Under the pieces are notes generated by a model. The model was not told where the DNA came from. It did not search any database and was given only the letters and a program-made list of their open reading frames with translations. This document shows positions 1 through 19,039 of a DNA stretch of 32,000 nucleotides, in pieces. The DNA comes from Prochlorococcus marinus subsp. pastoris str. CCMP1986. Lineage in GTDB: Bacteria > Cyanobacteriota > Cyanobacteriia > PCC-6307 > Cyanobiaceae. The position numbers were made by a program, and so were the translations under genes. Each line of letters begins with the position of its first letter. The first letter of the stretch is position 1. The DNA is taken from NCBI RefSeq assembly GCF_000011465.1, contig NC_005072.1, positions 120,001 to 152,000 of the forward strand. Reading direction: 5' to 3'.

Positions 1-68
1 GGCGTCGTCCAGTACCAGATGTTTGGTTTAAATTAGACCAAATTAAAGAATATATAGTTTCAGAATAG
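1..68 (+). CDS. 3-prime end of an unidentified CDS entering from the left edge (partial)
   Basis: Only + frame 3 stays open from the window edge (...RRPVPDVWFKLDQIKEYIVSE, TAG at 66..68). Frames 1 and 2 stop at 34..36 and 29..31. Too short to name. Confidence 0.3.
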   Translation, partial: RRPVPDVWFKLDQIKEYIVSE

Positions 69-72
69 TTAT

Positions 73-750
73 TCAGGAAATTATAGATTTTTTATCATAA
101 GCCATTTTTGATTGGATTCTTTTTGCTTCTTTCATCATTTCTTTTCCATCAAATAAATAATCATCTACATATCCTTGTGTGTACTTATCAAGTTCTGATA
201 AAGCATCTTTAACTTGAGAAAAACAATGATAAAGATCTAAACCTAAAGAGGATATTGGATTGGGCACAGATATTGACTTATAAAGCTTATCAACTTTTTC
301 AATTTTTCTTTGGGAAACAGTGATGTAACTGCAAAAATTATCCATCAATTCATCATCATATGGATCAGCAGATAGTTCCTTAATTTCTTGACTCAGAGGT
401 TTGATTATTTGGGTAATAAATCTATTGGTAGGATTATAAATATTTTTAATCCAATTTTTAACTTCATTATCTTTTATTGTAGAACTATATTTTGTTGTAT
501 TAACTTTCTCTTCCCAATTTTCATTTCTGAAATTAGATGATTGTTTTAATGAAAATAGGGTTTTATCATATTGTTCTTTTTTAAAAGGATCATTAAGAGT
601 CTCCCATGCATTTTGTATTGCAAGAAACCTATCTTTTTCACCTCCTGCATCGGGGTGATGTTGTTTAACTAAGCGACGATAAGAAGATTTAATTTCACCT
701 TGAGTTGCATTTTCCTTTACCTCTAATTCTTTATAAAGATTTTTGATCAT
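73..750 (-). CDS. J-domain (DnaJ-like) co-chaperone with a non-canonical C-terminal region
   Basis: N-terminal J-domain: YKELEVKENATQGEIKSSYRRLVKQHHPD with the HPD tripeptide. No Gly/Phe-rich or Cys-rich zinc-finger region follows, so this is not canonical DnaJ. Confidence 0.85.
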   Translation of the reverse strand: MIKNLYKELEVKENATQGEIKSSYRRLVKQHHPDAGGEKDRFLAIQNAWETLNDPFKKEQYDKTLFSLKQSSNFRNENWEEKVNTTKYSSTIKDNEVKNWIKNIYNPTNRFITQIIKPLSQEIKELSADPYDDELMDNFCSYITVSQRKIEKVDKLYKSISVPNPISSLGLDLYHCFSQVKDALSELDKYTQGYVDDYLFDGKEMMKEAKRIQSKMAYDKKSIIS

Positions 751-766
751 ATCTAAATATCCTTGC

Positions 767-1735
767 CTATAGATAACCGTCTTTTCTAGCTTTTATTGCA
801 GTGTTTGATTCAAACATTGCTGTAGATAAGTATCTTTCACCAAAACTCGGAAGAATCACTATTAATCTTTGATTAATAAGCTCTTTCCTTTGACCTATTT
901 TGATTGTTGCTGCCAAAGCAGCTCCGCTACTAATTCCTGATAAAAGACCCTCTAATCGAGCTAATAACCTCCCATAATAAAATGCTTCTTCATCATCTAT
1001 CTTAAAAATTTCATCTATTAAATGAGTGTCAAGTACCTTAGGAACGAAGCCTGCACCAATCCCCTGGATAGAATGAGAACCAGCTTTTTCTCCTGAAATT
1101 ACAGCGCTTTTTGCGGGCTCTACTGCATATATTTTGCAATTTGGATTAACTTTTTTTAGAAATCGAGAACATCCAGTTATGGTTCCTCCAGTACCAACTC
1201 CAGAAACTAATCCATCAATAGTTTGATTAGATTGATCCCAAATTTCTTTAGCTGTGGTCCTTTCATGAATTTCTGGATTTGCAAGATTTTCAAACTGGTT
1301 AAACTGAAAGCTATTTGGAATACTTGAAGATAATTCACTTGCTAAATCTAGAGCACCGTTCATTCCTTCTTTGCCAGGAGTGAGTTGTAATTCTGCCCCA
1401 TATGCTCTTAGCATTGCCCTTCTCTCAATACTCATAGTATCTGGCATAGTTAATATCAATCTATAACCTTTAGCTGCTGCAACCATTGCTAAAGCAATTC
1501 CAGTATTTCCACTTGTTGCCTCAATTAATGTTGTTTTCCCAGGTAAAATTAAACCATCTTTTTCGGCTGAATTTAACATCGAATAAGCAATACGATCTTT
1601 GACAGATGCTGATGGATTAAAACTTTCAAGTTTCGCTATTATTTCTGGATGACAATTACAGTATTTTTTTATGCGATCTAATTTTACTAATGGTGTTTTG
1701 CCAACTAAAGAAGTAATATCACCTGCTATTTCCAT
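767..1735 (-). CDS. cysK: cysteine synthase A (O-acetylserine sulfhydrylase)
   Basis: PLP-lysine motif NPSASVKDR, TSGNTGIALA, the GVGTGGTITG phosphate-binding loop, and typical length (322 aa). Confidence 0.95.
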   Translation of the reverse strand: MEIAGDITSLVGKTPLVKLDRIKKYCNCHPEIIAKLESFNPSASVKDRIAYSMLNSAEKDGLILPGKTTLIEATSGNTGIALAMVAAAKGYRLILTMPDTMSIERRAMLRAYGAELQLTPGKEGMNGALDLASELSSSIPNSFQFNQFENLANPEIHERTTAKEIWDQSNQTIDGLVSGVGTGGTITGCSRFLKKVNPNCKIYAVEPAKSAVISGEKAGSHSIQGIGAGFVPKVLDTHLIDEIFKIDDEEAFYYGRLLARLEGLLSGISSGAALAATIKIGQRKELINQRLIVILPSFGERYLSTAMFESNTAIKARKDGYL

Positions 1736-1891
1736 GGAAAAATTTTTACAAAATTAAATTTGTTCATTATTATTTTAAATGTATTTATACGTCTTTTATA
1801 AAAAAATTTTAAATTGAACTTAATTTCAAAACAACTTCTTAGAAAAGATTGTTCTATAGTTTGTTTATAATATAAAATTTACAATTCTTTT

Positions 1892-2161
1892 ATGTATTCT
1901 CTTGAAATAAGTCTAAGATATTCCCCCTTTCCCCTTTCAATTCAGAAGAAAGAGTATGAGGATATTAAAAGAATCTATGATGAAATCAAAGATTCTATGA
2001 ATAGTGATAACCAAAACTCCCCTTTAATCGAATTAAGTTGTGAAAAAGTTCAAGATAAATTGATAACTGTTCTTGCTAAAGAAGTTATTTCTGTTCAGAT
2101 ATATGAAAAGTCAGCAGTTGCTGGTGGATCAAAAAGACCTGGATTTTCCTTAGATATTTAG
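1892..2161 (+). CDS. small conserved hypothetical protein (89 aa)
   Basis: Clean ATG ORF whose TAG (2159..2161) is 1 nt from the ATG of the next gene (2163), which suggests co-translation. No motif I can name with confidence. Confidence 0.6.
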   Translation: MYSLEISLRYSPFPLSIQKKEYEDIKRIYDEIKDSMNSDNQNSPLIELSCEKVQDKLITVLAKEVISVQIYEKSAVAGGSKRPGFSLDI

Positions 2162-2162
2162 A

Positions 2163-2846
2163 ATGATCGAGATCGAGGATACTTTGCAAAATGGAGTACC
2201 TAATGTAACTTTCAAAAATGTGAGTTTTTCATGGCCAGGAAAAAATGAGCATGTAATAAATAATTGTAATTTTTCTATTAATAAAACTGGGTTATGGATG
2301 ATTGTTGGTAAAAATGGGAGCGGAAAGAGTACCTTGCTTAAGTTAATTAATGGACTTCTAATACCAAGCAATGGAGTCATAAATAAATTAGCGAACATTG
2401 GGATGGTTTTTCAGAATCCTGATCATCAAATATTAATGCCAAACTGTAGGAGTGAACTTCTTCTGAATATTAATCAAAATTTAAGTAGAAAAGATATTTC
2501 AAATAAAATTGACATTGCTCTAAACAAGGTTGGATTAGCTGGATTTGATAAAAGGTCGATTCATACATTAAGTGGCGGTCAAAAACAACGTTTAACTATT
2601 GCATCTTCATTGATAAGTGATAAGAATTTCATTCTTATGGATGAGCCCACAGCTCTATTAGATAGTTCTAGTCAATTAGCAGTTTTAGAAATAATTAAGG
2701 GCCTTACAAAGAATAAAAGAAACCCATTCACTGCTTTATGGATTACTCATCGTTTAGAGGAATTAAGTTATGCAGATGCAGTTGCAGAGATGAAGAATGG
2801 AAATTTATCAGATTGGCAGAAACCATTTAACTTTCAATATAATTAA
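2163..2846 (+). CDS. ABC transporter ATP-binding protein (CbiO/EcfA-like), no permease gene adjacent
   Basis: Walker A GKNGSGKST, ABC signature LSGGQKQR, Walker B FILMDEPT, H-loop ITHR. Confidence 0.9.
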   Translation: MIEIEDTLQNGVPNVTFKNVSFSWPGKNEHVINNCNFSINKTGLWMIVGKNGSGKSTLLKLINGLLIPSNGVINKLANIGMVFQNPDHQILMPNCRSELLLNINQNLSRKDISNKIDIALNKVGLAGFDKRSIHTLSGGQKQRLTIASSLISDKNFILMDEPTALLDSSSQLAVLEIIKGLTKNKRNPFTALWITHRLEELSYADAVAEMKNGNLSDWQKPFNFQYN

Positions 2847-2856
2847 GGTTTACCCC

Positions 2857-2886
2857 TTGTCATAAGGTACATGTAAGAGTTAAATT
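2857..2886 (+). promoter_or_regulatory. possible sigma70-type promoter for tRNA-Asn
   Basis: TTGTCA (2857..2862), 18-nt spacer, TAAATT (2881..2886), about 9 nt before the tRNA 5-prime end. Read by eye only. Confidence 0.3.
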
Positions 2887-2895
2887 TTTATATGT

Positions 2896-2967
<72 letters not shown>

Positions 2968-2995
2968 TTCCTTTTCATAAACGTTATCGTGTCAT

Positions 2996-3019
2996 AAGAC
3001 CCCATAAGGGTCTTTTTTA
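2996..3019 (+). terminator. intrinsic terminator after tRNA-Asn
   Basis: AAGACCC-CATAA-GGGTCTT (7-bp stem, 2996..3014) running into TTTTTT. Confidence 0.6.
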
Positions 3020-3078
3020 TTGGCATGTCTTGCAATATTGCAAAAACCATTAGATCACACACGTCCATAATAAGTCGC

Positions 3079-3113
3079 TTTTTTTATGTGTTTTGTGTTT
3101 TTTTATGTGTTTT
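3079..3113 (+). repeat. two tandem copies of the 16-mer TTTTTTTATGTGTTTT (3079..3094, 3098..3113)
   Basis: Exact copies separated by GTG. A third exact copy lies at 4361..4376, and the 20-mer TGTGTTTTTTTATGTGTTTT is shared by 3094..3113 and 4357..4376. Confidence 0.85.
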
Positions 3114-3288
3114 AGCTCTTTGTAAAAATGTGATTTTATTATTCAACTTATTTGACCATTTGTAATTGACAGTCAATCTAAAATTTAGAATAAACATCTA
3201 TTTTATATGGTGTATTCAGGTGACATTTAGAGAACGCTAGAATGATATCGAATTTCAGTTACATCAAAATTCAAAATTTTTTTCGGAC

Positions 3289-4260
3289 ATGAAAAAACTT
3301 GTATACCTTTTTCTTATATTGATGTGTTTTACCAGTGGTAATTCATACTCATGGGAAAAGGTACCTGTTCCAGACTCTGTAGATAAAAAAACAAAATCTC
3401 CTTGGAATTTTTCTGAAGACTTTGAAAATCAAGAAGAAGGAAGACTGAGAACTAACAAATTTCTCATCAACGATAAGGGGGCAGGTCTCAAACCATTTTT
3501 AATTAAGGAAGATCCTGATGGTAATAAGTATCTTGCGGTGACAGTGAAACATGGATGGAATCATGATCCTAAGAAAAAAAGAGGAGAAGAAACTGAAAGA
3601 GCAGAATTTCAGACAAGACCAAAAAGAGCTGTAGGTAAAGAAATGTGGATAAGTTTCAAAACAAGACTTCCACAGGATTTTACTCATATCGACGACAGAG
3701 TATTATTTTTTCAATTCAAAAACCAATTTGAACAAATGGGAAGGAGTCCTCTTTTAGGATTACGTTATTATAAAAATGGAAATAGATTACAAATAGGGGG
3801 AGATACCGGAGGAAATCCAAGGAAATCTATGAGTCGGGAGGAAAGGTATGTTCACCACATCGGAACAAAGTATAAAAACAAAGGGGGAAATTGGATTGTG
3901 CGTTGGGAAAAAGATAGAAGGGAAGGTAAAATCAGAGATGAAGATGATTTCAAACTCACAACGAACGAACCAGTGAGTGTAACTCCATTAGGTGAATGGA
4001 GCACATATAAGATTGGAATTTATAATACAAAGAATGATGATGGTTTTGTAAAAGTTTATAAAGATAACCAATTGATGTTTGATTATAAGGGTGTCACCTT
4101 TGATTGGCGTGGACGTTATAAAGGAAGTTATATCAGAATCGGTATCTATCGAGATTCAGGAAAACAATTTGGAATCGAATACCCCGATCAAACTATTCAC
4201 TTTGATGATTTCATTGTTGTTTCAGATGAAAAGACTTTAGATCAGATACTCAATAGGTAA
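3289..4260 (+). CDS. secreted protein, polysaccharide-lyase-like / ConA-like jelly-roll family (tentative)
   Basis: N-terminal signal peptide MKKLVYLFLILMCFTSGNSYS. Motif pattern ERAEF...GKEMWISFKTRLPQDF...VLFFQFKN...SPLLGLRY..NGNRLQIGG and C-terminal YIRIGIYRDS...IHFDDFIV resembles the Polysacc_lyase (heparin lyase I / glucuronan lyase type) family. No search run. Confidence 0.5.
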   Translation: MKKLVYLFLILMCFTSGNSYSWEKVPVPDSVDKKTKSPWNFSEDFENQEEGRLRTNKFLINDKGAGLKPFLIKEDPDGNKYLAVTVKHGWNHDPKKKRGEETERAEFQTRPKRAVGKEMWISFKTRLPQDFTHIDDRVLFFQFKNQFEQMGRSPLLGLRYYKNGNRLQIGGDTGGNPRKSMSREERYVHHIGTKYKNKGGNWIVRWEKDRREGKIRDEDDFKLTTNEPVSVTPLGEWSTYKIGIYNTKNDDGFVKVYKDNQLMFDYKGVTFDWRGRYKGSYIRIGIYRDSGKQFGIEYPDQTIHFDDFIVVSDEKTLDQILNR

Positions 4261-4356
4261 TCTGCGATCTTTTGATGAGCAGGTTCAAGTAGGTAAAATC
4301 CATTGACAAAATTGAAGTTAGAAGGAAATAGCAACATAAAAAATGACCCCATAAAA

Positions 4357-4376
4357 TGTGTTTTTTTATGTGTTTT
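4357..4376 (+). repeat. right-hand copy of the 20-mer TGTGTTTTTTTATGTGTTTT, preceded by GACCCCATAA (4345..4354)
   Basis: Identical to 3094..3113. GACCCCATAA also occurs at 2998..3007 inside the tRNA terminator hairpin. Together they bracket the cargo ORF. Confidence 0.85.
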
Positions 4377-4440
4377 CCAAGAGGGATATTTGTAATTTGG
4401 GCGACTATGCCTGTCTATGAACGCTTATGAAATATCAAAC

Positions 4441-4467
4441 CGACTTGCGCCCGGGGAGTTTATTTTC
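4441..4467 (+). repeat. displaced partial tRNA-Asn 3-prime fragment, attR-like
   Basis: Exact 13-mer at 4448..4460, degenerate upstream of that, so it cannot be a functional tRNA. Confidence 0.8.
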
Positions 4468-4485
4468 TCCTAAATAAGAGATATT

Positions 4486-4508
4486 GAGATCTTCGGGTCT
4501 CTTTTTTT
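4486..4508 (+). terminator. intrinsic terminator, probably the ancestral tRNA-Asn terminator
   Basis: GAGATC-TTCG-GGTCTC (6-bp stem with one G-U, UUCG tetraloop) followed by TTTTTTT (4502..4508). Confidence 0.6.
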
Positions 4509-4530
4509 ACGTAAAATACAACTAACTAAA

Positions 4531-4570
4531 GGGAAAAACTTTAAAAGCGCCTCATAACCTACTTTTAAAG
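4531..4570 (-). terminator. weak intrinsic terminator for the 119-aa gene
   Basis: CTTTAAAAG (4539..4547) pairs with CTTTTAAAG (4562..4570) around a 14-nt loop. On the minus strand it is followed by TTTTT (complement of 4534..4538). The stem is AU-rich, so it is weak. Confidence 0.35.
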
Positions 4571-4572
4571 AG

Positions 4573-4932
4573 TTAATCATCCCACATGTCTTGTTTATTC
4601 TGTTCGATATTATTTTTTTCAAGCAACTCTAATCTATGCTCTTTTGAATCTTCTTCAAAATTTTGTAAGTTTTCGTTGTTTGCAAATTTTTGTTGAATCT
4701 CCAAAATTATAATTTCAAATTGATCGCCATAAAATTTAGACATTTCCATCCATGCTTCCATTTCCTCCTCTTTTCCAATTGTGTCGTTTATCTGATGGCT
4801 AATTATTTCTAAAACAAATTCTTTTAACTCTTTATGGCTCATGCATTCAACTTTTTTTTGAATATAAAGTTCTTTTAGATGTTGTAACTGCTTTTTAGAT
4901 AAATCGGTGTAAGTAATAGATTTCTTTTTCAT
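4573..4932 (-). CDS. hypothetical acidic, predicted helical protein (119 aa)
   Basis: ATG ORF with 26 D/E of 119 residues by hand count, a basic N-terminus (MKKKS) and an acidic tail (QDMWDD). No recognisable motif. Confidence 0.55.
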   Translation of the reverse strand: MKKKSITYTDLSKKQLQHLKELYIQKKVECMSHKELKEFVLEIISHQINDTIGKEEEMEAWMEMSKFYGDQFEIIILEIQQKFANNENLQNFEEDSKEHRLELLEKNNIEQNKQDMWDD

Positions 4933-5357
4933 AAATATTCAGTTTGTTTTTATAATAAAGTTAACAATTAGTATCTAAAAAAGATTTTGAGTCACAAATA
5001 ATTTACATAATATTCTACGAAAAAAATTTAGTTTAAAAATAAAAGATTTAAATTGGTATGATAACAATCACCTGAATTTTTTACTTTCATAGATGTTGAT
5101 ATTCATGTTTTGAATAAAATTTAACTGACGTTATTTGCCGATTTATATTGAATTATTAAGTAATTATTAAGCAAATCGAAAGAATTTATAAAATTTATAT
5201 TTTCTTTTTAGTTGATATTTCCGTCTAATCCATTGAAGTAATTAGTTTTTTTATTGTAATAACTTAAATAAGTCTTTAAATTAGGTCTGCAATAAATGCA
5301 AAATGTTGAGAGAATCGTTATACAAAATCTTAATCTCGGTTTAATAATAGGTCAGAT

Positions 5358-6113
5358 ATGAAAATTTCAATCCTGTTGATAGAAGATGATCGTGATATGC
5401 GTGAATTAGTATCTGGTCATCTTGAACATTCTGGTTTTGATGTTCAAAAAGCTGAAGATGGTATTAAAGGTCAAGCTTTAGCCCTTCAATACTCTCCTGA
5501 CTTAATTCTTCTAGATTTAATGTTACCTAGCGTTGATGGTTTGACATTATGCCAAAGACTGCGGAGAGATGAAAGGACTTCAAATATTCCCATATTAATG
5601 ATTACAGCTTTGGGTGGACTTAAAGATAAAGTTACTGGATTTAATTCAGGTGCTGATGATTACATCACAAAACCATTTGATTTAGAGGAATTATACGTTC
5701 GTATCAAAGCTTTATTGAGAAGAACTAATAGAGCACAATTGAATTCAACTAACCAACAAGAAATTTTAAATTATGGACCTCTTACTCTTGTTCCGGAAAG
5801 GTTTGAAGCTATTTGGTTTGAATCTGCCGTGAGACTTACCCATTTAGAATTTGAGCTACTTCACTGTTTGATGCAAAGACATGGTCAAACAGTCTCTCCA
5901 GCACTGATATTAAAGGAAGTATGGGGTTATGAACCTGACGATGATATTGAGACTATTAGAGTTCATGTAAGGCACTTAAGAACAAAATTAGAACCTGAAC
6001 CTCGCAAGCCAAAATATATAAAAACTGTTTATGGAGCGGGATATTGCCTTGAGTTACCTGCGGTAGCTCAGGTTGATAATGGTATGCAAGAGTTTGCTGA
6101 ATCTACAAATTAA
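5358..6113 (+). CDS. rpaA: OmpR-family response regulator RpaA (circadian output regulator)
   Basis: Receiver domain LLIEDD...[10 protein letters not shown]...ITALG...[10 protein letters not shown]. The stretch [13 protein letters not shown]...[14 protein letters not shown] matches my memory of cyanobacterial RpaA. Winged-helix C-terminus [13 protein letters not shown]...GAGYCL. Confidence 0.9.
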
Positions 6114-6142
6114 AACTTAATCAAATGAGTAATTAAGTAACT

Positions 6143-7102
6143 TTACAAATCTTCAATTGCTATTTTTAATAAAGTTACTTCCCATGCTAGTCGTGGTTGT
6201 ATAAAACCTTTAAGATGTACCTTCAAATCTTCTAGTTTTTTGACGATGTTTTTGTTTCTAGTTTTTGCCCAACATTTTTGTTGTACAAAATTTATTAAAA
6301 ACATTTGTTGATCAATATCTAGTTCTTCAGATATTAATTTTGTTATTTTTAGTATTTCTAAATTATCACTTAATGGAAAGTCCAAGTTTTCTTTAATTGC
6401 ATTTGGTAATTGGTTCCAAATTTTTATATCTTTCAGTATTTTTCCTGGAGAGCCATTTGCTGAATTAATAAAATACTCTAAATCTATTTCTTTATAAATA
6501 TCAAAAACTGTAGAATCTAAATTATTTCTTATGAAAATCTCAAGCTGTTTATATGAAAAAGCTTTAAATCTTATAAGTTGACATCTTGAGATAATAGTAT
6601 CCAAAAGTAAGTTTAACCTAGAAGTTAAAAGAATAAATATACCGTTAGAGGGCTCTTCTAGTGTTTTTAAAAGACAATTAGATGCTGCTTCATTCATAAG
6701 GTGAGCATCATCAATTAATACAATTTTTCCACCTGATTCAATGGATTTTTGACCTAGAAAAGTCTTTAAATTTCTAATTTGCTCTATTCTTATTGTTTCT
6801 TTATTATTTTTTGTAGTTTCAGCTTCTGAACGATTTATAAGATTACCTTTAAAAAAATAGGTAGGCTCAATTAATAAGAAATCAGGGTGGTTTTTATCTA
6901 TGATTTTTTTTTCAATGTTTGAATTAGATGAATATTTATTAAAAATTTCCATAATAAATTTCATAGCGGTTTGTTTTTTCCCTATACCTTCCGGACCATA
7001 AAATATATAACCGTTGGAAAATGCTTTACTCTTAAGTATGCTTTCTAGATTTTCATTAACTTCCTGATTAATTAAAAGATTCTCAGTTTTAAGATCAATC
7101 AT
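6143..7102 (-). CDS. holB: DNA polymerase III delta-prime subunit
   Basis: AAA+ P-loop GPEGIGKK, Walker B-like [14 protein letters not shown], and the clamp-loader SRC motif (ISRCQLIRF). Overlaps tmk by 8 nt. Confidence 0.85.
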
Positions 7103-7739
7103 TGTTTACTCGAGAAAACTTTTTTAGTAAGGTTTCTTTTATTTCATTAGTAATAGTATTTATATCCTGTAAAGCAGATATTGTTGTCCAATTTTTTTCT
7201 TTTGCAATCAACTTAAAACCTTCATTAACTTTTTCTAGGAATTTTATCCCTTCAGATTCCATCCTATCTGGAATAAACTTTTCCCTTCGTAATACACTTT
7301 CTTCTGCTGAAATTTCTAGAAAAATAGTCAGGTCTGGGGATTCTCCTTGACAAACAATAGATTCGATATTTTTGATAATCTCAAGATTGATATTTCTACC
7401 ATAACCTTGATAAGCAAGTGTAGAGTCACAAAATCTATCGCTAAGTACCCAGTCTTGATTTTCTAAAGCAGGTGATATGGTTTTGGAAATATGTTCTGCT
7501 CTATCAGCAGAATAAAGCAATAATTCAGCCAGAGAAGAAGGTTTATTATCTTTATGATTATCAAGTATTAAATTTCTAATTTTTTTTCCTAATAAGCTTC
7601 CTCCAGGTTCTCTAGTTTTTACTAATTTTTGCTTTCCTCTCAAAAGACCACTAGTTGGGATCCATTTAGAAATTTCATCAATTTGGGTTGTTTTACCGCA
7701 ACCATCAATTCCTTCAATAACAATAAATTTACCCCTCAT
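7095..7739 (-). CDS. tmk: thymidylate kinase
   Basis: [15 protein letters not shown]-loop, TREPGG, DRF..S..AYQG motifs, 214 aa. Confidence 0.95.
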
Positions 7740-10037
7740 TTATTCTAAAGATAAAGCATTTATTACAACGGTTATTGAACTAGTTGCCATCAATAATGCT
7801 GCGATTGATGGTGTAAGAAGAATGCCATATTTTGGAAATAGAATACCTCCCGCTATGGGAATTGCAATCAAGTTGTATCCAAAAGCCCAGAATAGATTTT
7901 GTTTAATTTTTCCTATTGTTCTTTTTGCAAGACTAAGTGCATAAGGTAATCCAGATAACTGATCTCCCATTAAAACAACATCTGCATTCGCTTTCGCAAT
8001 CTGGGTACCTGAACCAACTGCTATTCCTAAATTTGAAGCTGCCAAAGCAGGTGCATCATTTATTCCATCTCCAATCATTGCAACTTTATTGCTCTTCTTT
8101 AAATTTTCAATTATTTTTAATTTCATTTCTGGAAGAAGATCCCATTTTATTTCTGCTTCTGGACTATCTAATTTTTTTGCCAACTCCACTACAGTTTCTT
8201 TTCTATCTCCGCTTAAAATTTTTATATTATAATTATCCTCTCTTAATTTTTGAACAGAACTAATAGAATCCTCTCTTAATAAATCACCTAATAAAATAAA
8301 TCCGAGTAACTTCTTATTTATACATACTCCAATCACAGAATGGGATTTGTTTTCCTCATTTTCTAATATTTCTTTTGATTTACTATCAATTATTACTCCT
8401 TTACTATTCAACCATTCAACACTTCCAATATTGATTTCCCCATCAATTGAATCAAGTTCTCCTGATATACCTCTACCAGATTCTGTATGGATGTTTTTAA
8501 TTGTCAACAAGCTAAGGTTTTGTTTTTTGGCTTCATTAACTAATGCGCTAGCTATGGGATGTCGGCTTTGACTTTCTAAACTTGCAGATATTTTTAAAAG
8601 AAATAATTTATCAGCAGTATTTAAATAATCGATTATGAAAGGTTTACCTTTGGTCAATGTCCCTGTTTTATCAAAAATAATATGATTAATTTTTGATGCC
8701 ATTTCTATTTTATCTCCGCCTTTAAATAAAACGCCTTTTTTTGCAGCTTTACCTGATGCAACAGTTATTACTGTGGGAGTAGCAAGACCTAAAGCGCAGG
8801 GACAAGCTATTACTAAAACAGCAATTGAGAGTTGAATGGCTAAAGTTAAAAAATTTTCAGCATTACTACCTAATGAATTATGTAACGTATGGTTGGATGT
8901 GGTTAACAAGTCATGATGATTGTTTATTAACAAATCTGGCCAAATTTGTTTTGCACCTTTCCACCAAAAAAAGAAGCTTGAAGTTGCAATAAAAAGTACG
9001 AAGTATGTGAATTTCCCTGCAATCTTATCAGCGATTCTCTGAATTGGAGGCTTTTTAGATTGAACTGATTCAATAAGATTAACTAGTTTTGCTAGAGAAG
9101 TTTCTTCTCCCACTTTGATAACCTTTAGCTTTAAGGTGGAATTTAAATTTAATGAGCCATTAAGTAAATGTTCACCTGATTTCACATCTATAGGTTTAGA
9201 TTCCCCTGTAATATGAGAAACATCTACAGATGAATTTCCATTGATAACAATACAATCAGCTGGTACACGATCTCCAGCTAATAATTGAATTTCATCTCCT
9301 ATTTTTAAAGAATGTACTCTGACTGATTTGACTTTATTTGCTTCTATATAAATATTTGCCATTTCTGGTTGGAGATCTAGTAATTCTCCAATAGAAGAAC
9401 CTGTTTGATACTTTGCTCTTTCTTCTAAAAAACGTCCAATAAGAATAAACCCCAATAACATTACTGGTTCATTAAAAAAACAGGGAAAACCAGTCGAAGG
9501 AAATATTAATGATAATAGACTTGTTGTATAAGCACTACTTACTCCCAGAGCTACTAAAGAATCCATATCTGGTCGATTTTTAATAAGTGATTTGAATCCT
9601 TTGATTACAATTTCTCTTCCAGGAAAGAATAAAGCTAATGTGGCCAGTGCAGCATGAAAGAATAAATTTCCTAATATTGGTAAATTTAAAAAACCTCCTT
9701 CTGCTAAATGCCCTAACACTGAAAACAATAAAAGTAAGAGTGCAAAATTAAGTTTTTTCCATTGATTAATCCATTTCTTTTTTTTTTCTAATTGAACTTT
9801 ATTTACTTTTTTTGAAAAATCATTTATGTAAATCTTTGCGGGAAAACCGCTTTGCTTGAGGTTTTCTAAAACCTGATCAATGTTTGGAACTGTTTTATTA
9901 ATTTCAAAATATGCACTTTCAGTAAGTAAGTTAACAGAAACATTTTGTACCCCATCCGAATTTTTTAATATATTTTCTACCGTGTTAACACAACCCCCAC
10001 ATTTCATACCGGTAATATTTAATTGAATACTATTCAT
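7740..10037 (-). CDS. copper-translocating P1B-type ATPase (CtaA/PacS-like)
   Basis: N-terminal HMA domain GMKCGGC, TGES (ITGESKP), transmembrane CPC (CPCALGLATP), DKTGTLT phosphorylation site, GDGINDAPAL hinge. Confidence 0.93.
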   Translation of the reverse strand: MNSIQLNITGMKCGGCVNTVENILKNSDGVQNVSVNLLTESAYFEINKTVPNIDQVLENLKQSGFPAKIYINDFSKKVNKVQLEKKKKWINQWKKLNFALLLLLFSVLGHLAEGGFLNLPILGNLFFHAALATLALFFPGREIVIKGFKSLIKNRPDMDSLVALGVSSAYTTSLLSLIFPSTGFPCFFNEPVMLLGFILIGRFLEERAKYQTGSSIGELLDLQPEMANIYIEANKVKSVRVHSLKIGDEIQLLAGDRVPADCIVINGNSSVDVSHITGESKPIDVKSGEHLLNGSLNLNSTLKLKVIKVGEETSLAKLVNLIESVQSKKPPIQRIADKIAGKFTYFVLFIATSSFFFWWKGAKQIWPDLLINNHHDLLTTSNHTLHNSLGSNAENFLTLAIQLSIAVLVIACPCALGLATPTVITVASGKAAKKGVLFKGGDKIEMASKINHIIFDKTGTLTKGKPFIIDYLNTADKLFLLKISASLESQSRHPIASALVNEAKKQNLSLLTIKNIHTESGRGISGELDSIDGEINIGSVEWLNSKGVIIDSKSKEILENEENKSHSVIGVCINKKLLGFILLGDLLREDSISSVQKLREDNYNIKILSGDRKETVVELAKKLDSPEAEIKWDLLPEMKLKIIENLKKSNKVAMIGDGINDAPALAASNLGIAVGSGTQIAKANADVVLMGDQLSGLPYALSLAKRTIGKIKQNLFWAFGYNLIAIPIAGGILFPKYGILLTPSIAALLMATSSITVVINALSLE

Positions 10038-10688: not shown

Positions 10689-12041
10689 TTACTCGTTCAA
10701 TGCATAATTAATAGCTTCATTTATATTTGAAATTTCTTTAATTTGTATGAATTTTTGAAAACTATCTTTAATTTCACTAGTAATTTTAGGTAGTAAAATA
10801 TTTTTAATACCAAGCCTAATAGCCTCATCAATTTTGGCTCTAATATTACTTGCCTGCCTTACCTGACCGCTTAAACCTAATTCGCCAATAAATGCACAAT
10901 TTATCAATGGTGGAATATTTTTTAAGCTTGATAAGATTGATATGGCAACTCCTAAATCTGAAGATGGGTCATTTATTTCAAAGCCACCTCCTGTAGCTAT
11001 ATAGCAGTCATATTCTGATAATTTAATCCCAACATGTTTTTCAATCACTGCTAATATTTGATGTAATCTATTTATGCTCATTCCAGTTGTTGTTCGTCTT
11101 GGGTTATTGTAGAAAGTCTTATTTACTAAAGCTTGAATATCAACTGCAAATGGTCTCGATCCTTCATTAGTGATAGTGGTTGTGACGCCGGCTATATTTT
11201 CTTTATTTGTGAATATTGAACTAGGGTTAATAACTTCTCTTAAACCATTTTCTAACATTTCAAAAATTCCAATTTCAAAAGTTGATCCAAATCTATTTTT
11301 TACACTTCTTAGTAATCTATGGGAGGCAATATTATCTCCTTCAAAATTGAGTACCACATCTACTAAATGTTCTAAAGTTTTTGGACCGGCAAGAGCTCCA
11401 TCTTTCGTAACGTGACCTATTATCAAAAGGGCTATATTATTTTCTTTAGCAAGATTCTGAAGTTCAGATGAACAAGTCCTTACTTGGGAAACAGATCCTG
11501 GAGAACTTTCCATCTCATCATTATTAATAGCTTGGATACTATCAATAATCGCAAAACCAGGTTTTATTTTTTTAATCTCTTCGATAATTAAAGATAAATT
11601 AGTTTCTGCATAAATTTTTAAATCGAGGCTGCTTTGATTTAATCTTTCCCATCTTATTTTTACTTGTTCTAAAGATTCTTCTGCAGTGATGTATAAAACT
11701 TTTTCATTAAGGGATATTTTCCCTGCTGATTGAAGCACTATGGTACTTTTACCAATTCCTGGTTCTCCTCCAAGTAAAACTATAGATCCCGGAACTATAC
11801 CACCACCTAGTACTCTGTCAAACTCTTTAAAACCACTCGTAAATCTTGATATATTACCTATTTCTATTTCATTAAACAGCTTAGATTTTTTATTTTTATT
11901 AACACTAGTTATTTTAGATCTAGTGTTTTTTCTTTCTTCAACGATGGTATTCCATTCATTACAATTTAAGCATCTTCCGAAGTATTGAGAAGTCTCAGAT
12001 CCGCAATTTTGACAAATAAAAGTCGAAAATTTATTAGACAT
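10689..12041 (-). CDS. radA: DNA repair protein RadA/Sms
   Basis: Zinc ribbon CQNCGSE..CLNCNEWNT, Walker A GGEPGIGKST, KNRFG motif, Lon-like C-terminal domain. Confidence 0.95.
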   Translation of the reverse strand: MSNKFSTFICQNCGSETSQYFGRCLNCNEWNTIVEERKNTRSKITSVNKNKKSKLFNEIEIGNISRFTSGFKEFDRVLGGGIVPGSIVLLGGEPGIGKSTIVLQSAGKISLNEKVLYITAEESLEQVKIRWERLNQSSLDLKIYAETNLSLIIEEIKKIKPGFAIIDSIQAINNDEMESSPGSVSQVRTCSSELQNLAKENNIALLIIGHVTKDGALAGPKTLEHLVDVVLNFEGDNIASHRLLRSVKNRFGSTFEIGIFEMLENGLREVINPSSIFTNKENIAGVTTTITNEGSRPFAVDIQALVNKTFYNNPRRTTTGMSINRLHQILAVIEKHVGIKLSEYDCYIATGGGFEINDPSSDLGVAISILSSLKNIPPLINCAFIGELGLSGQVRQASNIRAKIDEAIRLGIKNILLPKITSEIKDSFQKFIQIKEISNINEAINYALNE

Positions 12042-15370: not shown

Positions 15371-16267
15371 ATGACAGTCGCATGGGTATTCCCTGGTCAG
15401 GGTTCACAAAAAATTGGTATGGCAAATAAAGTTATAGATTTGCCAAATGCAAAATTTAGGTTTAATTATGCCTCCGAAGTATTCGAGAGAAATTTATTTG
15501 AAATTTGTGAACTAAATTCTGATAAGAAAAATCTTTCTGATGATTTAAATAATACAAAGAACACTCAAATTTGTCTTTTTCTAGTGGAATCAGTATTATT
15601 AGACTCTTTAAAAGAAAATGGCTTTAAACCAACCTATATCGCTGGACATAGTTTAGGTGAAATTACGGCTTTATATTGTGCTGATGTTTTGTCTTTTGAA
15701 GATTGTGTACAACTTATAAAAGTTAGATCTGGATTAATGGCAGATGCCGCAAAGGGATCTATGGCAGCATTAATAAGTTTTGATAGAGATCAATTAGATT
15801 TACTGGTAGAAGAGATTGACGATCTTGTAATAGCGAATGACAATAGCTCTTCTCAAGTTGTTCTATCAGGAAGCGAAAAAGCTTTAGATAATATTTCAAA
15901 ACGAATTAAAGCAAAAAGATTCCTTAAATTAAATGTTTCGGGTGCTTTTCATTCACCATTCATGAAAGAATCATCATTTCAATTTTCAAAATATTTAGAC
16001 ACTCTAGAATTTAATCAGCCTTCTATGCCCGTTATAAGTAATTCTCATCCATCACTATGTAATAATCCAAATGATCTGAAGGTTAGGTTTAAAAATCAAA
16101 TGTGTAATGGTGTTAGATGGCGTCAAACTATGGATTTAATGAAAGAGAATAGTATTCTTCAAATGGTAGAAATTGGCCCATCTAATGTCCTTGGTGGTCT
16201 AGGTAAAAGGCATTTAAAGGATGTAAAAATTTCTCAAGTATCTTCTGCAGATCAAATTAAATATTGA
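15371..16267 (+). CDS. fabD: malonyl-CoA:ACP transacylase
   Basis: MTVAWVFPGQGSQ start and GHSLGE active site. I prefer the ATG at 15371 to the track start at 15326, which would overlap fabH by 31 nt. Confidence 0.9.
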   Translation: MTVAWVFPGQGSQKIGMANKVIDLPNAKFRFNYASEVFERNLFEICELNSDKKNLSDDLNNTKNTQICLFLVESVLLDSLKENGFKPTYIAGHSLGEITALYCADVLSFEDCVQLIKVRSGLMADAAKGSMAALISFDRDQLDLLVEEIDDLVIANDNSSSQVVLSGSEKALDNISKRIKAKRFLKLNVSGAFHSPFMKESSFQFSKYLDTLEFNQPSMPVISNSHPSLCNNPNDLKVRFKNQMCNGVRWRQTMDLMKENSILQMVEIGPSNVLGGLGKRHLKDVKISQVSSADQIKY

Positions 16268-17805: not shown

Positions 17806-19039
17806 AATCAAGAAAGAAGATCTTAAAAATCATATTTTCATTGATCATACACTAATAATTAATGAAATAGAAAGAAGTATAAAATCTTATAATTGGGATT
17901 TTATTTTATCTTCTTTACCTTCTGGATCTTTTTTAGTAGGTGGATATATAAGAGATTTAATTTTAGGAAGATTAAATTCTGTAATTGATGTTGATATTTT
18001 AGTTCCAAAAAATGCAATTAATGTTGGTAAGAAAATTGCAGATAAATTTGAAGGTAAATTTATTATTCTTGATGAGGCAAGAGATGTAGTAAGAATTATT
18101 TTTAAACATATCTCAATTGATATCGCTTCTCAAATTTCTCCTTCTATTGATATTGATTTATTAAGTCGAGATTTTTCTATTAATGCTATTGCTTTTTCTT
18201 TTGAAGAAAAACTTCTCATTGATCCATCAAATGGAATTAAAGATCTACAACTTGCTTTTTTGAGAACTAATTCAAAGCAGAACTTATTGGATGATCCATT
18301 AAGAATCTTAAGATGCTTTCGTTTTATTTCTGAATTAGATTTTAATGTTGATGTAACTTTAATAGATTTTATTAAAACTTATAAAAATCAATTAAGACTT
18401 GTTGCTAATGAAAGAATTAATTATGAAATACAGCGAATAATAAGGGGGGGGAAAGCATCGCAGGCGATAATCTTAATAAATAAATTTAAAATTTTTGATT
18501 ATATACAGTCAGAAAAAAATTTGATATTTCTTGATTTAGAAAAAATTAATTTTGAAGAATTTAATAAATTTGAAAAGGAAAAATTTTTACCATTATTTTA
18601 TCTTGTTCAAATTTTAGACGAATTTTCTTTGAAAAATTTAAAATTTAGCAAATCTGAAATTTCAAAAATTAGGCTATTAAGAAAATGGAATCTTTTATTG
18701 AAGGTGCAAAATATTTATGAATTTAATGAGAAAGAAAGATTTGATTTACATCAGGAATTAGAAACTATTCTTCCATCTTTTATTCTTTTTTTGCCAAAAT
18801 CATTTTATGTAAATTGGCTCGCTAGATGGCGAGATAAAGATGATAAATTATTTCATCCGTCGAATTTAATAAAAGGGAACGTTTTAAAAAAATATTTAAA
18901 AATCCAAGATGGACCTATTTTAGGAAAGGTCATTAATTATCTTTCTATGGAGCTTGCATATAATAGATTGAATAATTTTGATGAAGCTATATATAAAGGA
19001 AAGCAATGGATTCAACAAAATGCGCCAAAATGTGATTAA
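17792..19039 (+). CDS. tRNA nucleotidyltransferase / poly(A) polymerase family (CCA-adding enzyme)
   Basis: Head-domain motifs GGYIRDLILGR...DVDILV and SRDFSINA, then LLDDPLRILRCFRF. Confidence 0.8.
   Translation: MQMHIIKKEDLKNHIFIDHTLIINEIERSIKSYNWDFILSSLPSGSFLVGGYIRDLILGRLNSVIDVDILVPKNAINVGKKIADKFEGKFIILDEARDVVRIIFKHISIDIASQISPSIDIDLLSRDFSINAIAFSFEEKLLIDPSNGIKDLQLAFLRTNSKQNLLDDPLRILRCFRFISELDFNVDVTLIDFIKTYKNQLRLVANERINYEIQRIIRGGKASQAIILINKFKIFDYIQSEKNLIFLDLEKINFEEFNKFEKEKFLPLFYLVQILDEFSLKNLKFSKSEISKIRLLRKWNLLLKVQNIYEFNEKERFDLHQELETILPSFILFLPKSFYVNWLARWRDKDDKLFHPSNLIKGNVLKKYLKIQDGPILGKVINYLSMELAYNRLNNFDEAIYKGKQWIQQNAPKCD

What the first reader, a model, noticed from the sequence alone, without database searches (positions are those of the whole stretch)
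2950..4467. Integrase-less 1.5 kb insertion at tRNA-Asn, bounded by a duplicated tRNA 3-prime end with a separate terminator after each copy
Seen in sequence: the last 11 nt of tRNA-Asn plus 2 downstream nt (CGCCCGGGGAGTT, 2957..2969) recur exactly at 4448..4460, 1491 bp away. The extended alignment 2950..2976 vs 4441..4467 is 22/27. Each copy is followed within about 30 nt by a different hairpin + T-run (2996..3019 and 4486..4508). The right-hand terminator faces the weak terminator of the minus-strand gene 4573..4932. That arrangement looks like the ancestral tRNA / neighbour junction, with 2970..4447 inserted between the tRNA and its original terminator.

Established knowledge: this attL/attR geometry is the hallmark of site-specific integration into tRNA 3-prime ends. 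Prochlorococcus genomic islands and tycheposon-type elements use tRNA genes this way.

Inference: the interval has no integrase, excisionase or replication gene, only one cargo ORF. It is therefore either a decayed element or a minimal cargo cassette mobilised in trans by a recombinase encoded elsewhere. The second option would be the more novel.
Basis: partly seen in the sequence, partly recalled or inferred. Interest (0 to 1): 0.7.

Follow-up and report, generated by a model that had tools for sequence, protein, structure and literature searches.

The report
Integrase-less gene cassette at tRNA-Asn
A 1.5-kb, one-gene DNA cassette was spliced precisely into the end of the tRNA-Asn gene of a marine Prochlorococcus; it carries recombination-site arms but no recombinase, and is one of many such cassettes that swap in and out of this spot in related cells.

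Summary
tRNA-Asn(GTT) lies at 2895-2968. Its last 11 nt plus 2 more (CGCCCGGGGAGTT) recur at 4448-4460, with 0 matches expected by chance. Each copy is followed by its own hairpin and T-run. Genomes 97-98% identical in the flanks have the predicted empty site, with the tRNA joined directly to the right-hand terminator.

Across 80 Prochlorococcus genomes the variable DNA begins and ends at this core. 37 cassettes are bounded by two cores. One encodes an integrase, 15 encode only an AlpA/Xis-like protein, and 21 encode neither; the window's cassette is among the 21.

A divergent P4-like tyrosine integrase family does use this site. It occurs in integrated 4.8-12-kb elements and in a 7,565-bp apparently circular form carrying one attP.

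An integrase-less 965-bp cassette is 95.9% identical between genomes whose adjacent core gene is 73.6% identical, and the similarity stops at the cores.

The window's cargo is a secreted polysaccharide-lyase-fold protein. The same gene module sits in another integrase-less cassette at tRNA-Ser(CGA).

Verdict: a non-autonomous, CIME-like cassette of a tycheposon-like system, at a tRNA not among the seven sites listed for tycheposons. Site-specific insertion is shown. Present-day mobilisation by an integrase encoded elsewhere is inferred.

The parts
2895..2968 (+). tRNA-Asn (anticodon GTT), the integration target; intact after the insertion
   Evidence: ARAGORN; Rfam RF00005, 67.5 bits, 2896-2967
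2957..2969 (+). attL core CGCCCGGGGAGTT: the last 11 nt of the tRNA plus 2 nt
   Evidence: Exact repeat with 0 chance matches. The same core bounds cassettes in 80 related loci.
2970..3165 (+). Element-borne left arm: CATAA x3 (2976, 2993, 3003), a replacement tRNA terminator, and a conserved block holding two 16-mers
   Evidence: 83% identical to the sequence after the tRNA in L032. The block architecture is shared with L064 and L023. Every cassette in related loci starts with its own short repeats plus a hairpin and T-run. The circular element's attP carries such an arm.
2996..3019 (+). Terminator hairpin AAGACCCCATAAGGGTCTT plus T-run, brought in by the cassette; it now terminates the tRNA transcript
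   Evidence: Terminator scan; RNA fold -11.8 kcal/mol, z = -2.45
3079..3113 (+). Two copies of the 16-mer TTTTTTTATGTGTTTT; a third copy lies in the right arm. Function unknown.
   Evidence: Three copies in the window, all inside the cassette; 0.04 expected. The block is conserved in L064 and L023.
3166..4294 (+). Cargo module: promoter-like upstream region, ORF, and 34 nt downstream
   Evidence: 3166-3288 is 92% identical and 4261-4294 is 97% identical to L083, where the module sits in a tRNA-Ser(CGA)-bounded cassette. Also shared with L081 and L082.
3289..4260 (+). 323-aa protein of the polysaccharide-lyase fold with an N-terminal hydrophobic, signal-peptide-like helix, read as secreted
   Evidence: Pfam PF14099, E 3.8e-20. 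AlphaFold2 pLDDT 84. Best PDB fold match is the PL20 glucuronan lyase 2zzj, E 1.7e-11, followed by alginate lyases and heparinase I. 164 homologues in marine metagenomes.
4295..4447 (+). Element-borne right arm: 16-mer (4361-4376), YTATG x3 at exact 10-bp phasing (4405, 4415, 4425), and a core-proximal block GAAATATCAAACCGACTTG (4429-4447) shared with integrase-bearing elements
   Evidence: 4261-4447 is 98.4% identical to L081, against about 91% over 3248-4461, which is mostly the gene. The phased triple is unique in the window, 0.0007 expected. Alignment with arms of integrase-bearing elements L297, L298, L304 and L305.
4448..4460 (+). attR core: the duplicated tRNA 3' end
   Evidence: It lies 128 bp from the DUF7326 stop, as in occupied relatives.
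4461..4508 (+). Ancestral tRNA-Asn trailer and original terminator (hairpin 4486-4501 plus T-run)
   Evidence: Collinear and nearly identical with the sequence directly after the tRNA in empty-site genome L001; L006 carries a more diverged version of the same sequence. Terminator scan.
4573..4932 (-). Conserved DUF7326 gene, the distal border of the variable site in all genomes; rpaA-like regulator follows at 5358-6113
   Evidence: Pfam PF24012, E 1e-16; synteny in 80 loci

Best explanation
The interval 2970-4447 is a non-autonomous integrative cassette. It consists of two recombination arms around a single cargo gene. It was inserted by tyrosine-integrase site-specific recombination between a circular attP (right arm, core, left arm) and the 3' end of tRNA-Asn. 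The crossover lies within the 13-nt core. The tRNA is regenerated. The cassette's left arm supplies a new terminator, and the old terminator is displaced to the far side of attR. These points are shown.

The integrase is not in the cassette. Autonomous relatives encode a divergent P4-like integrase plus an AlpA/Xis-like protein next to the same kind of right arm, and they use the same core.

Inferred: the cassette was delivered by such an integrase, and could still be excised by one. The integrase could act in trans, or in cis after tandem 'accretion' with an autonomous element that later leaves alone. On this reading the cassette did not lose its own integrase in place. The cargo is a secreted enzyme of the polysaccharide-lyase fold, expressed from its own upstream region.
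For: - Exact 13-nt core repeat, 0 expected by chance.
- Empty-site alleles in genomes 97-98% identical in the flanks.
- In 80 loci the variable DNA is delimited by this core.
- Left and right arms co-vary by family: A 7/7; D, G and E 3/3 each; C 3 of 4.
- The integrase family matches phrog_1 (E 8e-25 and 7e-29) and keeps the catalytic residues R, K, R, H and Y invariant, with the H of the HxxR motif in at least 90%.
- This integrase sits next to the right arm in L020 and L078, which are among the 80 loci. It does so too in L304, L305, L297 and L298, which were found separately.
- 7,565-bp contigs from three assemblies are more than 99% identical, are circular permutations with terminal overlaps, and carry a single attP whose left arm includes a terminator hairpin.
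- L298 shows an integrase-bearing element next to the window clade's own ancestral trailer.
- The window's right arm shares its core-proximal 32 nt (24/32) with those elements.
- No integrase or AlpA remnant in the window. No integrase fragments in the other cassettes.
- The integrase-less cassette L005c0 vs L046c1 is 95.9% identical over 965 bp, against 73.6% for the adjacent ABC gene. Similarity starts and stops at the cores.
- The window's right arm is 98.4% identical to L081, where it abuts a different downstream cassette.
- The same cargo module sits in an integrase-less cassette bounded by tRNA-Ser(CGA) repeats.
Against: - No excised circle or attP junction of the window's own cassette was found. 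The one metagenome scan returned only family-B arms.
- No integrase was found next to a window-type arm, so the cognate enzyme is unknown.
- The window's distal arm repeats (YTATG) differ from those of the integrase-bearing elements (TCAG). Their integrase may not bind the window's arm.
- The cassette was seen in only one other contig (L081), which also carries an extra HNH gene.
- Unlike 15 related cassettes, it lacks the AlpA/Xis-like gene, so it could be an immobile end product.
- The circular contigs could in principle come from tandem chromosomal copies.
- The 80 genomes are mostly single-cell assemblies.
Confidence: 0.6

Rival explanations
1. Decay in place. A once-autonomous integrase-bearing element integrated at tRNA-Asn in an ancestor of this strain and then lost its integrase, AlpA gene and other genes by deletion. 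What remains is an immobile fossil with attL and attR.
For: The cassette has no integrase and no AlpA gene. Versions of similar cargo exist with and without the integrase: L304 and L064 share a type I restriction-modification system at 85-93% identity. No excised form of this cassette was found. Hackl et al. describe degenerated elements and scattered partial tRNAs in islands.
Against: No pseudogene fragments were found, even at E = 10 to 100. The arms are better conserved than the cargo, 98.4% against about 91% versus L081. The same right end lies in a different downstream context in L081. 36 of 37 two-core cassettes lack an integrase, without any integrase debris. 15 of them keep intact, conserved AlpA ORFs of a subtype distinct from that of integrase-bearing elements. 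This points to lineages of non-autonomous cassettes rather than repeated independent decay. Another integrase-less cassette shows clear horizontal transfer.
Confidence: 0.28
2. This genome acquired the cassette by homologous recombination. A DNA segment from a related cell that already carried the cassette replaced the empty allele through crossovers in the conserved flanks (tRNA/ABC gene on one side, DUF7326/rpaA on the other). The site-specific event would have happened elsewhere and earlier.
For: The flanks are 96-98% identical among clade members that carry different occupants of the site. Such flanks would allow allele exchange.
Against: This does not explain the origin of the att-bounded structure. 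It cannot place the same cassette behind different neighbours, as seen in L005 vs L046 and the window vs L081, where only 11-13 nt of homology flank the unit. Hackl et al. report no elevated recombination at island flanks.
Confidence: 0.1
3. The 13-nt repeat is a coincidence, and the interval is ordinary strain-specific DNA.
For: None beyond the short repeat length.
Against: Zero matches in shuffles. Empty sites lie exactly at the repeat. The same core bounds dozens of cassettes.
Confidence: 0.01

Closest known systems
Tycheposons and 'cryptic' integrase elements of Prochlorococcus genomic islands (Hackl et al., bioRxiv 10.1101/2020.12.28.424599; later in Cell 2023, the latter from my own knowledge)
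   Same: Same host genus. Integration into tRNA 3' ends leaves partial tRNA repeats. Tandem arrays build up next to the tRNA. Cargo is ecological or defence genes. A tyrosine integrase comes with an excisionase-like gene, and some elements carry a small serine recombinase.
   Different: tRNA-Asn(GTT) is not among the seven listed target genes. The window's unit has no integrase and no replication module, both of which define those elements. The integrase family here gives no Pfam hit at E <= 0.001. Most units at this site are 0.2-5-kb integrase-less cassettes with matched arms.
CIMEs (cis-mobilizable elements) derived from ICEs and IMEs, e.g. ICESt1-related elements of Streptococcus thermophilus (definition quoted in PMC5704250)
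   Same: An element that has lost, or lacks, integration and transfer genes but retains attL and attR. It lies at the 3' end of a target gene, often in tandem with related autonomous elements. A neighbouring element's integrase can move it.
   Different: No conjugation system is involved, and Prochlorococcus lacks one. Many cassettes here keep an intact AlpA/Xis-like gene. Cargo-free 190-257-bp units exist. Mobilisation has not been shown experimentally.
P4 / CP4-57-type tRNA-integrating islands (P4-like tyrosine integrase with AlpA)
   Same: The integrase has the P4-like layout and catalytic residues. Relatives carry precomputed Pfam hits PF13356, PF14659, PF22022 and PF00589. An AlpA-family HTH gene lies beside the integrase. 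The target is a tRNA 3' end.
   Different: Very divergent sequence, with no PDB sequence match. The elements are much smaller. Most units at this site lack the integrase altogether.
Integron gene cassettes
   Same: Short, mostly single-gene or few-gene units without a recombinase. They are stacked head to tail at one chromosomal site, with the newest next to the attachment point. Cargo modules are exchanged between cassettes.
   Different: There is no IntI gene, attI or Pc promoter at the site; the neighbours are an ABC ATPase and DUF7326. The recombination sites are attP-type arms around a tRNA-derived core, not folded attC hairpins. The cargo has its own upstream region.

Membership tests
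tRNA-targeted site-specific integrative element, integrated form | Direct repeats of the tRNA 3' end flank the insert, and the tRNA stays intact | tested here: met
   13-nt exact repeat; tRNA scores 67.5 bits
tRNA-targeted site-specific integrative element, integrated form | Empty-site alleles exist whose junction coincides with the repeat | tested here: met
   L001, L002, L006 and L008 have 115-118-bp gaps; L001 shows the predicted junction
tRNA-targeted site-specific integrative element, integrated form | Encodes its own site-specific recombinase | tested here: not met
   one ORF only (a lyase); no integrase or AlpA similarity
Tycheposon (Hackl et al.) | Site-specific integrase within the element | tested here: not met
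   definition
Tycheposon (Hackl et al.) | Replication module (primase, helicase or polymerase) | tested here: not met
   no such gene in 2970-4447
Tycheposon (Hackl et al.) | Integration at one of the seven listed genes (tRNA Pro-tgg, Ser-tga, Ala-ggc, Thr-ggt, Arg-tct, Met-cat; tmRNA) | tested here: not met
   One search lists the seven; the target here is tRNA-Asn(GTT). No mention of Asn in the main text or in the three supplementary files held, at least one of them truncated when stored.
Tycheposon (Hackl et al.) | Integrase belongs to the monophyletic tycheposon integrase clade | not testable with these tools
   The reference integrase sequences and tree are not available here. This applies to the integrases of relatives L020, L078 and L304.
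CIME (cis-mobilizable element) | Retains attL and attR but lacks integration and transfer genes | tested here: met
   definition
CIME (cis-mobilizable element) | Related autonomous elements use the same att site | tested here: met
   L078c0, L304, L305, L297, L298 and the circular L307-L309
CIME (cis-mobilizable element) | Derived from an autonomous element by deletion | tested here: inconclusive
   No remnants found. The arms are only partly homologous to those of integrase-bearing elements.
CIME (cis-mobilizable element) | Excised or transferred together with an adjacent autonomous element | not testable with these tools
   Needs experiments or read-level data. Tandem arrays are seen in relatives.
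Integron cassette | attC-type folded recombination site, with an adjacent intI, attI and Pc | tested here: not met
   no recombinase gene borders the site. The RNA-parameter fold of the stretch around the right-arm 16-mer (4330-4385) is not significant. The arms are attP-like.
Tyrosine recombinase (integrases of related elements, not in the window) | Catalytic R..K..HxxR..H/W..Y set | tested here: met
   R264, K293, R364, H398 and Y399 invariant; H361 at 90% or more. phrog_1 E 8e-25.

The most novel reading that the evidence does not exclude
tRNA-Asn in high-light Prochlorococcus may be the docking site of a cassette system. Small recombinase-free units would carry matched attP arms around one or a few genes. 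Some carry only an AlpA/Xis-like gene, and some carry no cargo at all. Integrases encoded by rare autonomous relatives would routinely excise, circulate and re-insert them. Cargo modules would be swapped between cassettes specific for different tRNAs. That would be a concrete, site-specific route by which the integrase-free bulk of Prochlorococcus island DNA is acquired.
Probability: 0.35. Interest if true: 0.75.

Novelty: new member of a known kind. Interest (0 to 1): 0.55.

Why it matters
Hackl et al. found that integrase-bearing elements make up only about 3.6% of Prochlorococcus island DNA. How the rest arrives was left as a hypothesis. This site offers a clean, small test case.

- Units with exact att boundaries and matched arms lack a recombinase.
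- At least one such unit was transferred between distant clades.
- The site, tRNA-Asn, and an integrase family invisible to Pfam at usual thresholds both fall outside the published catalogue, so similar sites may have been missed.
- The cargo, a secreted polysaccharide-lyase-like enzyme, also occurs in a tRNA-Ser cassette. This hints at selection on the use or remodelling of extracellular polysaccharide in a photoautotroph.

Tried and rejected
- **IMG/VR scans.** A scan of IMG/VR for the integrase family found no relatives.
- **Metagenome scan.** The single scan, for CCGACTTGCGCCCGGGGAG, returned four marine contigs, all with family-B arms. None had the window's arm or an attP of the PL cassette.
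- **Pfam for integrases.** Pfam was misleading. It gave no hit at E <= 0.001 for the L020 protein that PHROGs calls an integrase. The Pfam negatives were therefore not relied on. PHROGs was run on 111 ORF cluster representatives. phrog_1 was not among the families matched by two or more members, so at most one cluster can match it; separately, the L020/L078 proteins match it.
- **My motif screens.** My regular-expression screens for recombinase motifs were too strict; they missed both the resolvase and the integrase.
- **Other null results.** The PDB sequence search found nothing for the lyase or the integrase. Rfam found only the tRNA. RNA folds of the 16-mer regions were not significant.
- **Literature.** A search for 'Prochlorococcus' plus 'tRNA-Asn' gave nothing relevant.
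- **Considered and rejected.** An integron-like system with a resident integrase was rejected because no recombinase gene flanks the site. A chance repeat was rejected.
Full report
**1. The observation**

The window is AT-rich DNA (about 30-35% G+C over 1-9000). Its genes are 99-100% identical to those of Prochlorococcus single-cell genomes.

- tRNA-Asn(GTT) lies at 2895-2968; Rfam places it at 2896-2967.
- CGCCCGGGGAGTT occurs at 2957-2969 and 4448-4460 and nowhere else. Shuffled sequence gave no matches, even with two mismatches allowed.
- The extended repeat is 22/27.
- The only two terminator-like sites in 2700-5400 lie just after each copy, at 2996-3014 and 4486-4501.
- Between the copies there is one convincing ORF, 3289-4260.

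I could not confirm a terminator for the minus-strand gene.

**2. It is an insertion at an att site**

A scan of one genome per species returned 80 syntenic Prochlorococcus loci. In the clade closest to the window, the flanks are 96-98% identical.

- Four genomes have only 115-118 bp between the tRNA and the DUF7326 gene.
- Occupied genomes carry a second copy of the tRNA end 126-128 bp from the DUF7326 stop. The window's copy lies at 128 bp.
- In the more distant HLII-type genomes the empty gap is about 330 bp, and second copies lie about 345-352 bp from DUF7326.

So the variable DNA starts and ends at the 13-mer. The right-hand terminator is the tRNA's original one.

**3. Anatomy of the units at this site**

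I tabulated every stretch between the tRNA, or a partial copy of it, and the next partial copy.

- *Left arm.* Each unit begins with about 25-35 nt of short repeats followed by its own G+C hairpin and T-run. This explains the 'separate terminator after each copy'.
- *Right arm.* Each unit ends with an arm of about 80-130 nt that contains phased short repeats.
- *Co-variation.* Left and right arms co-vary by family: A 7/7; D, G and E 3/3 each; C 3 of 4. The units are therefore discrete, with matched ends.
- *Cargo-free units.* Six units of 190-257 bp are arms only.
- *Class counts.* Of 37 units with both cores recognisable, one encodes an integrase (L078c0, 7,990 bp). Fifteen encode only an intact 60-65-aa AlpA-family protein next to the right arm (PF05930). 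Twenty-one, including the window's, encode neither.
- *Cargo elsewhere.* Cargo includes type I and type ISP restriction-modification systems, methylases, nucleases, surface-polysaccharide genes, a nitrite-assimilation set and transporters.

**4. The recombinase exists, but elsewhere**

A 420-437-aa protein in L020 and L078 gave no Pfam hit at E <= 0.001. It matches PHROG 1 'integrase' at E 8e-25 and 7e-29.

- It has 121 marine homologues. Some of them carry precomputed Pfam integrase domains.
- The catalytic residues R, K, R, H and Y are invariant; the H of the HxxR motif is kept in at least 90%.
- The gene always sits just inside a 'family B' right arm, preceded by an AlpA-like ORF. This holds in L304 (about 12 kb, with a type I restriction-modification system), L305 (a complete 4,811-bp element from tRNA-Asn to the second core), and metagenome contigs L297 and L298.
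- In L298 the core is followed by the ancestral trailer of the window's own clade.
- Contigs from three independent assemblies are more than 99% identical circular permutations of a 7,565-bp unit with terminal overlaps. Each contains one attP: right arm, then CGCCCGGGGAG, then a left arm with a terminator hairpin. The attP lies about 550 bp from the integrase gene.

This looks like the excised form. It shows that the terminator-bearing arm belongs to the element.

PHROGs was also run on 111 island ORF clusters. No integrase family was matched by two or more clusters, so beyond the L020/L078 cluster at most isolated singletons could remain.

**5. The window's cassette**

- *Left arm, 2970 to about 3165.* It is shared with L032 (83% identity) and in its architecture with L064 and L023.
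- *Cargo module, 3166-4294.* Its upstream region is shared at 92% identity with L083.
- *Right arm, 4295-4447.* The stretch 4261-4447 is 98.4% identical to metagenome contig L081, against about 91% over 3248-4461, which is mostly the gene. In L081 the similarity stops at the core. What follows the core there is the left arm of a family-A cassette, as in L005.
- *Phased repeats.* The arm contains YTATG three times at exact 10-bp spacing. This is unique in the window, with 0.0007 expected. Any phased triple occurs in only 0.3% of 60-nt tiles. The left arm carries CATAA three times in the inverse orientation.
- *Link to integrase-bearing elements.* The 32 nt next to the core match the arms of those elements at 24/32.
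- *No recombinase trace.* There is no trace of an integrase or AlpA gene.
- *Unexplained repeat.* A 16-mer, TTTTTTTATGTGTTTT, occurs twice in the left arm and once in the right. Its role is unknown.

**6. Do integrase-less cassettes move?**

The family-A cassette of L005 belongs to the window's clade. It is 95.9% identical over all 965 bp to the second cassette of MIT 9302 (L046). The adjacent ABC gene is only 73.6% identical.

The alignment shows near-identity switching on at the first core and off after the second. On the left the neighbours differ: the tRNA in one genome, another cassette's arm in the other. Conversely, genomes with 97-98% identical flanks carry family-A cassettes only 85-89% identical to one another.

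Family-B cassettes share only their arms, about 250-300 bp, around different cargo. The integrase-less AlpA-only cassettes share an AlpA subtype and an upstream sequence distinct from those of integrase-bearing elements. This argues for lineages of non-autonomous cassettes, not repeated decay.

The window's cargo module also lies in a 1.76-kb integrase-less cassette in L083. That cassette is bounded by tRNA-Ser(CGA) and a 12-nt repeat of its 3' end.

**7. Mechanism, and how sure each step is**

- *Shown:* site-specific insertion at the tRNA-Asn core; regeneration of the tRNA; an element-borne replacement terminator; absence of a recombinase in the unit; a cognate-type integrase family and an apparently circular attP form in the same populations.
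- *Inferred:* the cassette was delivered by such an integrase, and may still be mobilised by one. This could happen in trans, or in cis through tandem accretion as described for CIMEs.
- *Not shown:* excision of this particular cassette, or an integrase that pairs with its distal arm repeats.

**8. The cargo**

The cargo is a 323-aa protein with an N-terminal hydrophobic, signal-peptide-like helix, which I read as a secretion signal. It matches PF14099. The predicted structure is a confident beta-jelly roll with pLDDT 84. Its best structural match is a PL20 glucuronan lyase, followed by alginate lyases and heparinase I. Its substrate is unknown.

**9. Comparison with what is known, and novelty**

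The general process is the one Hackl et al. describe for tycheposons and island growth. An att-flanked unit without a recombinase fits the published definition of a CIME. By their definition the window's unit is not a tycheposon. It has no integrase and no replication module, and its target is not among their seven sites.

I file it as a new member of a known kind. What is new lies at the level of the site:

- a target tRNA not on the published list;
- an integrase family that Pfam misses;
- a dense population of matched-arm cassettes that are integrase-less, AlpA-only or cargo-free.

Noticed in passing
window 3079-3094, 3098-3113, 4361-4376; L064 10921-11007 and 17903-17927; L023 about 10930-10970: The 16-mer TTTTTTTATGTGTTTT occurs only inside the cassette: twice in the left arm and once in the right. 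It sits in a block (AATGTGTTTTTTTATGTGTT.TAGCTCTTT.AAAAATGTG) conserved in the left regions of other tRNA-Asn islands. It has no significant fold. Its role, whether protein binding or regulation, is unknown.
   Followed up: partly
L083 7547-9401: A homologue of the cargo gene (66% aa identity; upstream region 92% nt identity) sits in a 1.76-kb integrase-less cassette. The cassette is bounded by tRNA-Ser(CGA) and a 12-nt repeat of its 3' end (CACCCTCTCCGT at 7622-7633 and 9390-9401). tRNA-Ser(CGA) is also absent from the published list, which names Ser-tga.
   Followed up: partly
L056 10786-11006; L071 10786-11033; L009 8554-8781; L035 10786-10976; L068 13684-13895; L075 10786-11043: Cargo-free 'mini cassettes' of 190-257 bp consist only of a left arm and a right arm between two cores. 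They are in effect solo attP-like units inserted in the array.
   Followed up: partly
L002 and L008, about 10806-10860: Even 'empty' sites of the closest clade differ in the first 45 bp or so after the tRNA. L002 carries a family-G left arm and L008 a family-C left arm, in place of the ancestral trailer, with no change in gap length. These may be footprints of past integration and excision, or of arm exchange.
   Followed up: no
L020 1614-1803: An inverted copy of left arm, core and about 40 nt of right arm lies 9 kb upstream of tRNA-Asn. It sits exactly where synteny with L019, L021 and L017 breaks. It could be an inversion or a secondary integration involving att sites.
   Followed up: partly
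L020 13846-14448; L072 13993-14589; L078 14894-15496; L021 13600-14202; L307 7103-7681: A small serine recombinase of about 200 aa (PF00239; phrog_125 DNA invertase) occurs in four tRNA-Asn islands. In the circular 7.6-kb element it lies next to the tyrosine integrase. Its role is unknown.
   Followed up: no
L020 19295-20605 (-); L304 10001-11278; L307 5336-6589: The integrase family of this site gives no significant Pfam hit: none at E <= 0.001, and only marginal SAM-like or central-domain hits at E of about 0.001. Pfam-based screens for integrases would miss these elements.
   Followed up: yes
L032 10780-16060: A unit of about 5.2 kb at tRNA-Asn has a window-type left arm and carries nitrite-assimilation-type genes (NIR_SIR reductase, formate/nitrite transporter, tetrapyrrole methylase). 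It ends in what looks like a degenerate core (TCCTCCCGGAAGTT near 16003), preceded by the 16-mer motif.
   Followed up: no
window 4573-4932 (-): The DUF7326 gene is the invariant distal neighbour of the att site in every genome examined, with its 3' end facing the site. Function unknown. There is no evidence that it takes part in recombination.
   Followed up: no
L304 (reverse strand) vs L064 11048-17283: Near-identical type I restriction-modification cargo (85-93% identity) occurs once in an integrase-bearing element (L304) and once in an integrase-less unit (L064). In L064 the right arm and core are degenerate (about 18536-18597).
   Followed up: partly
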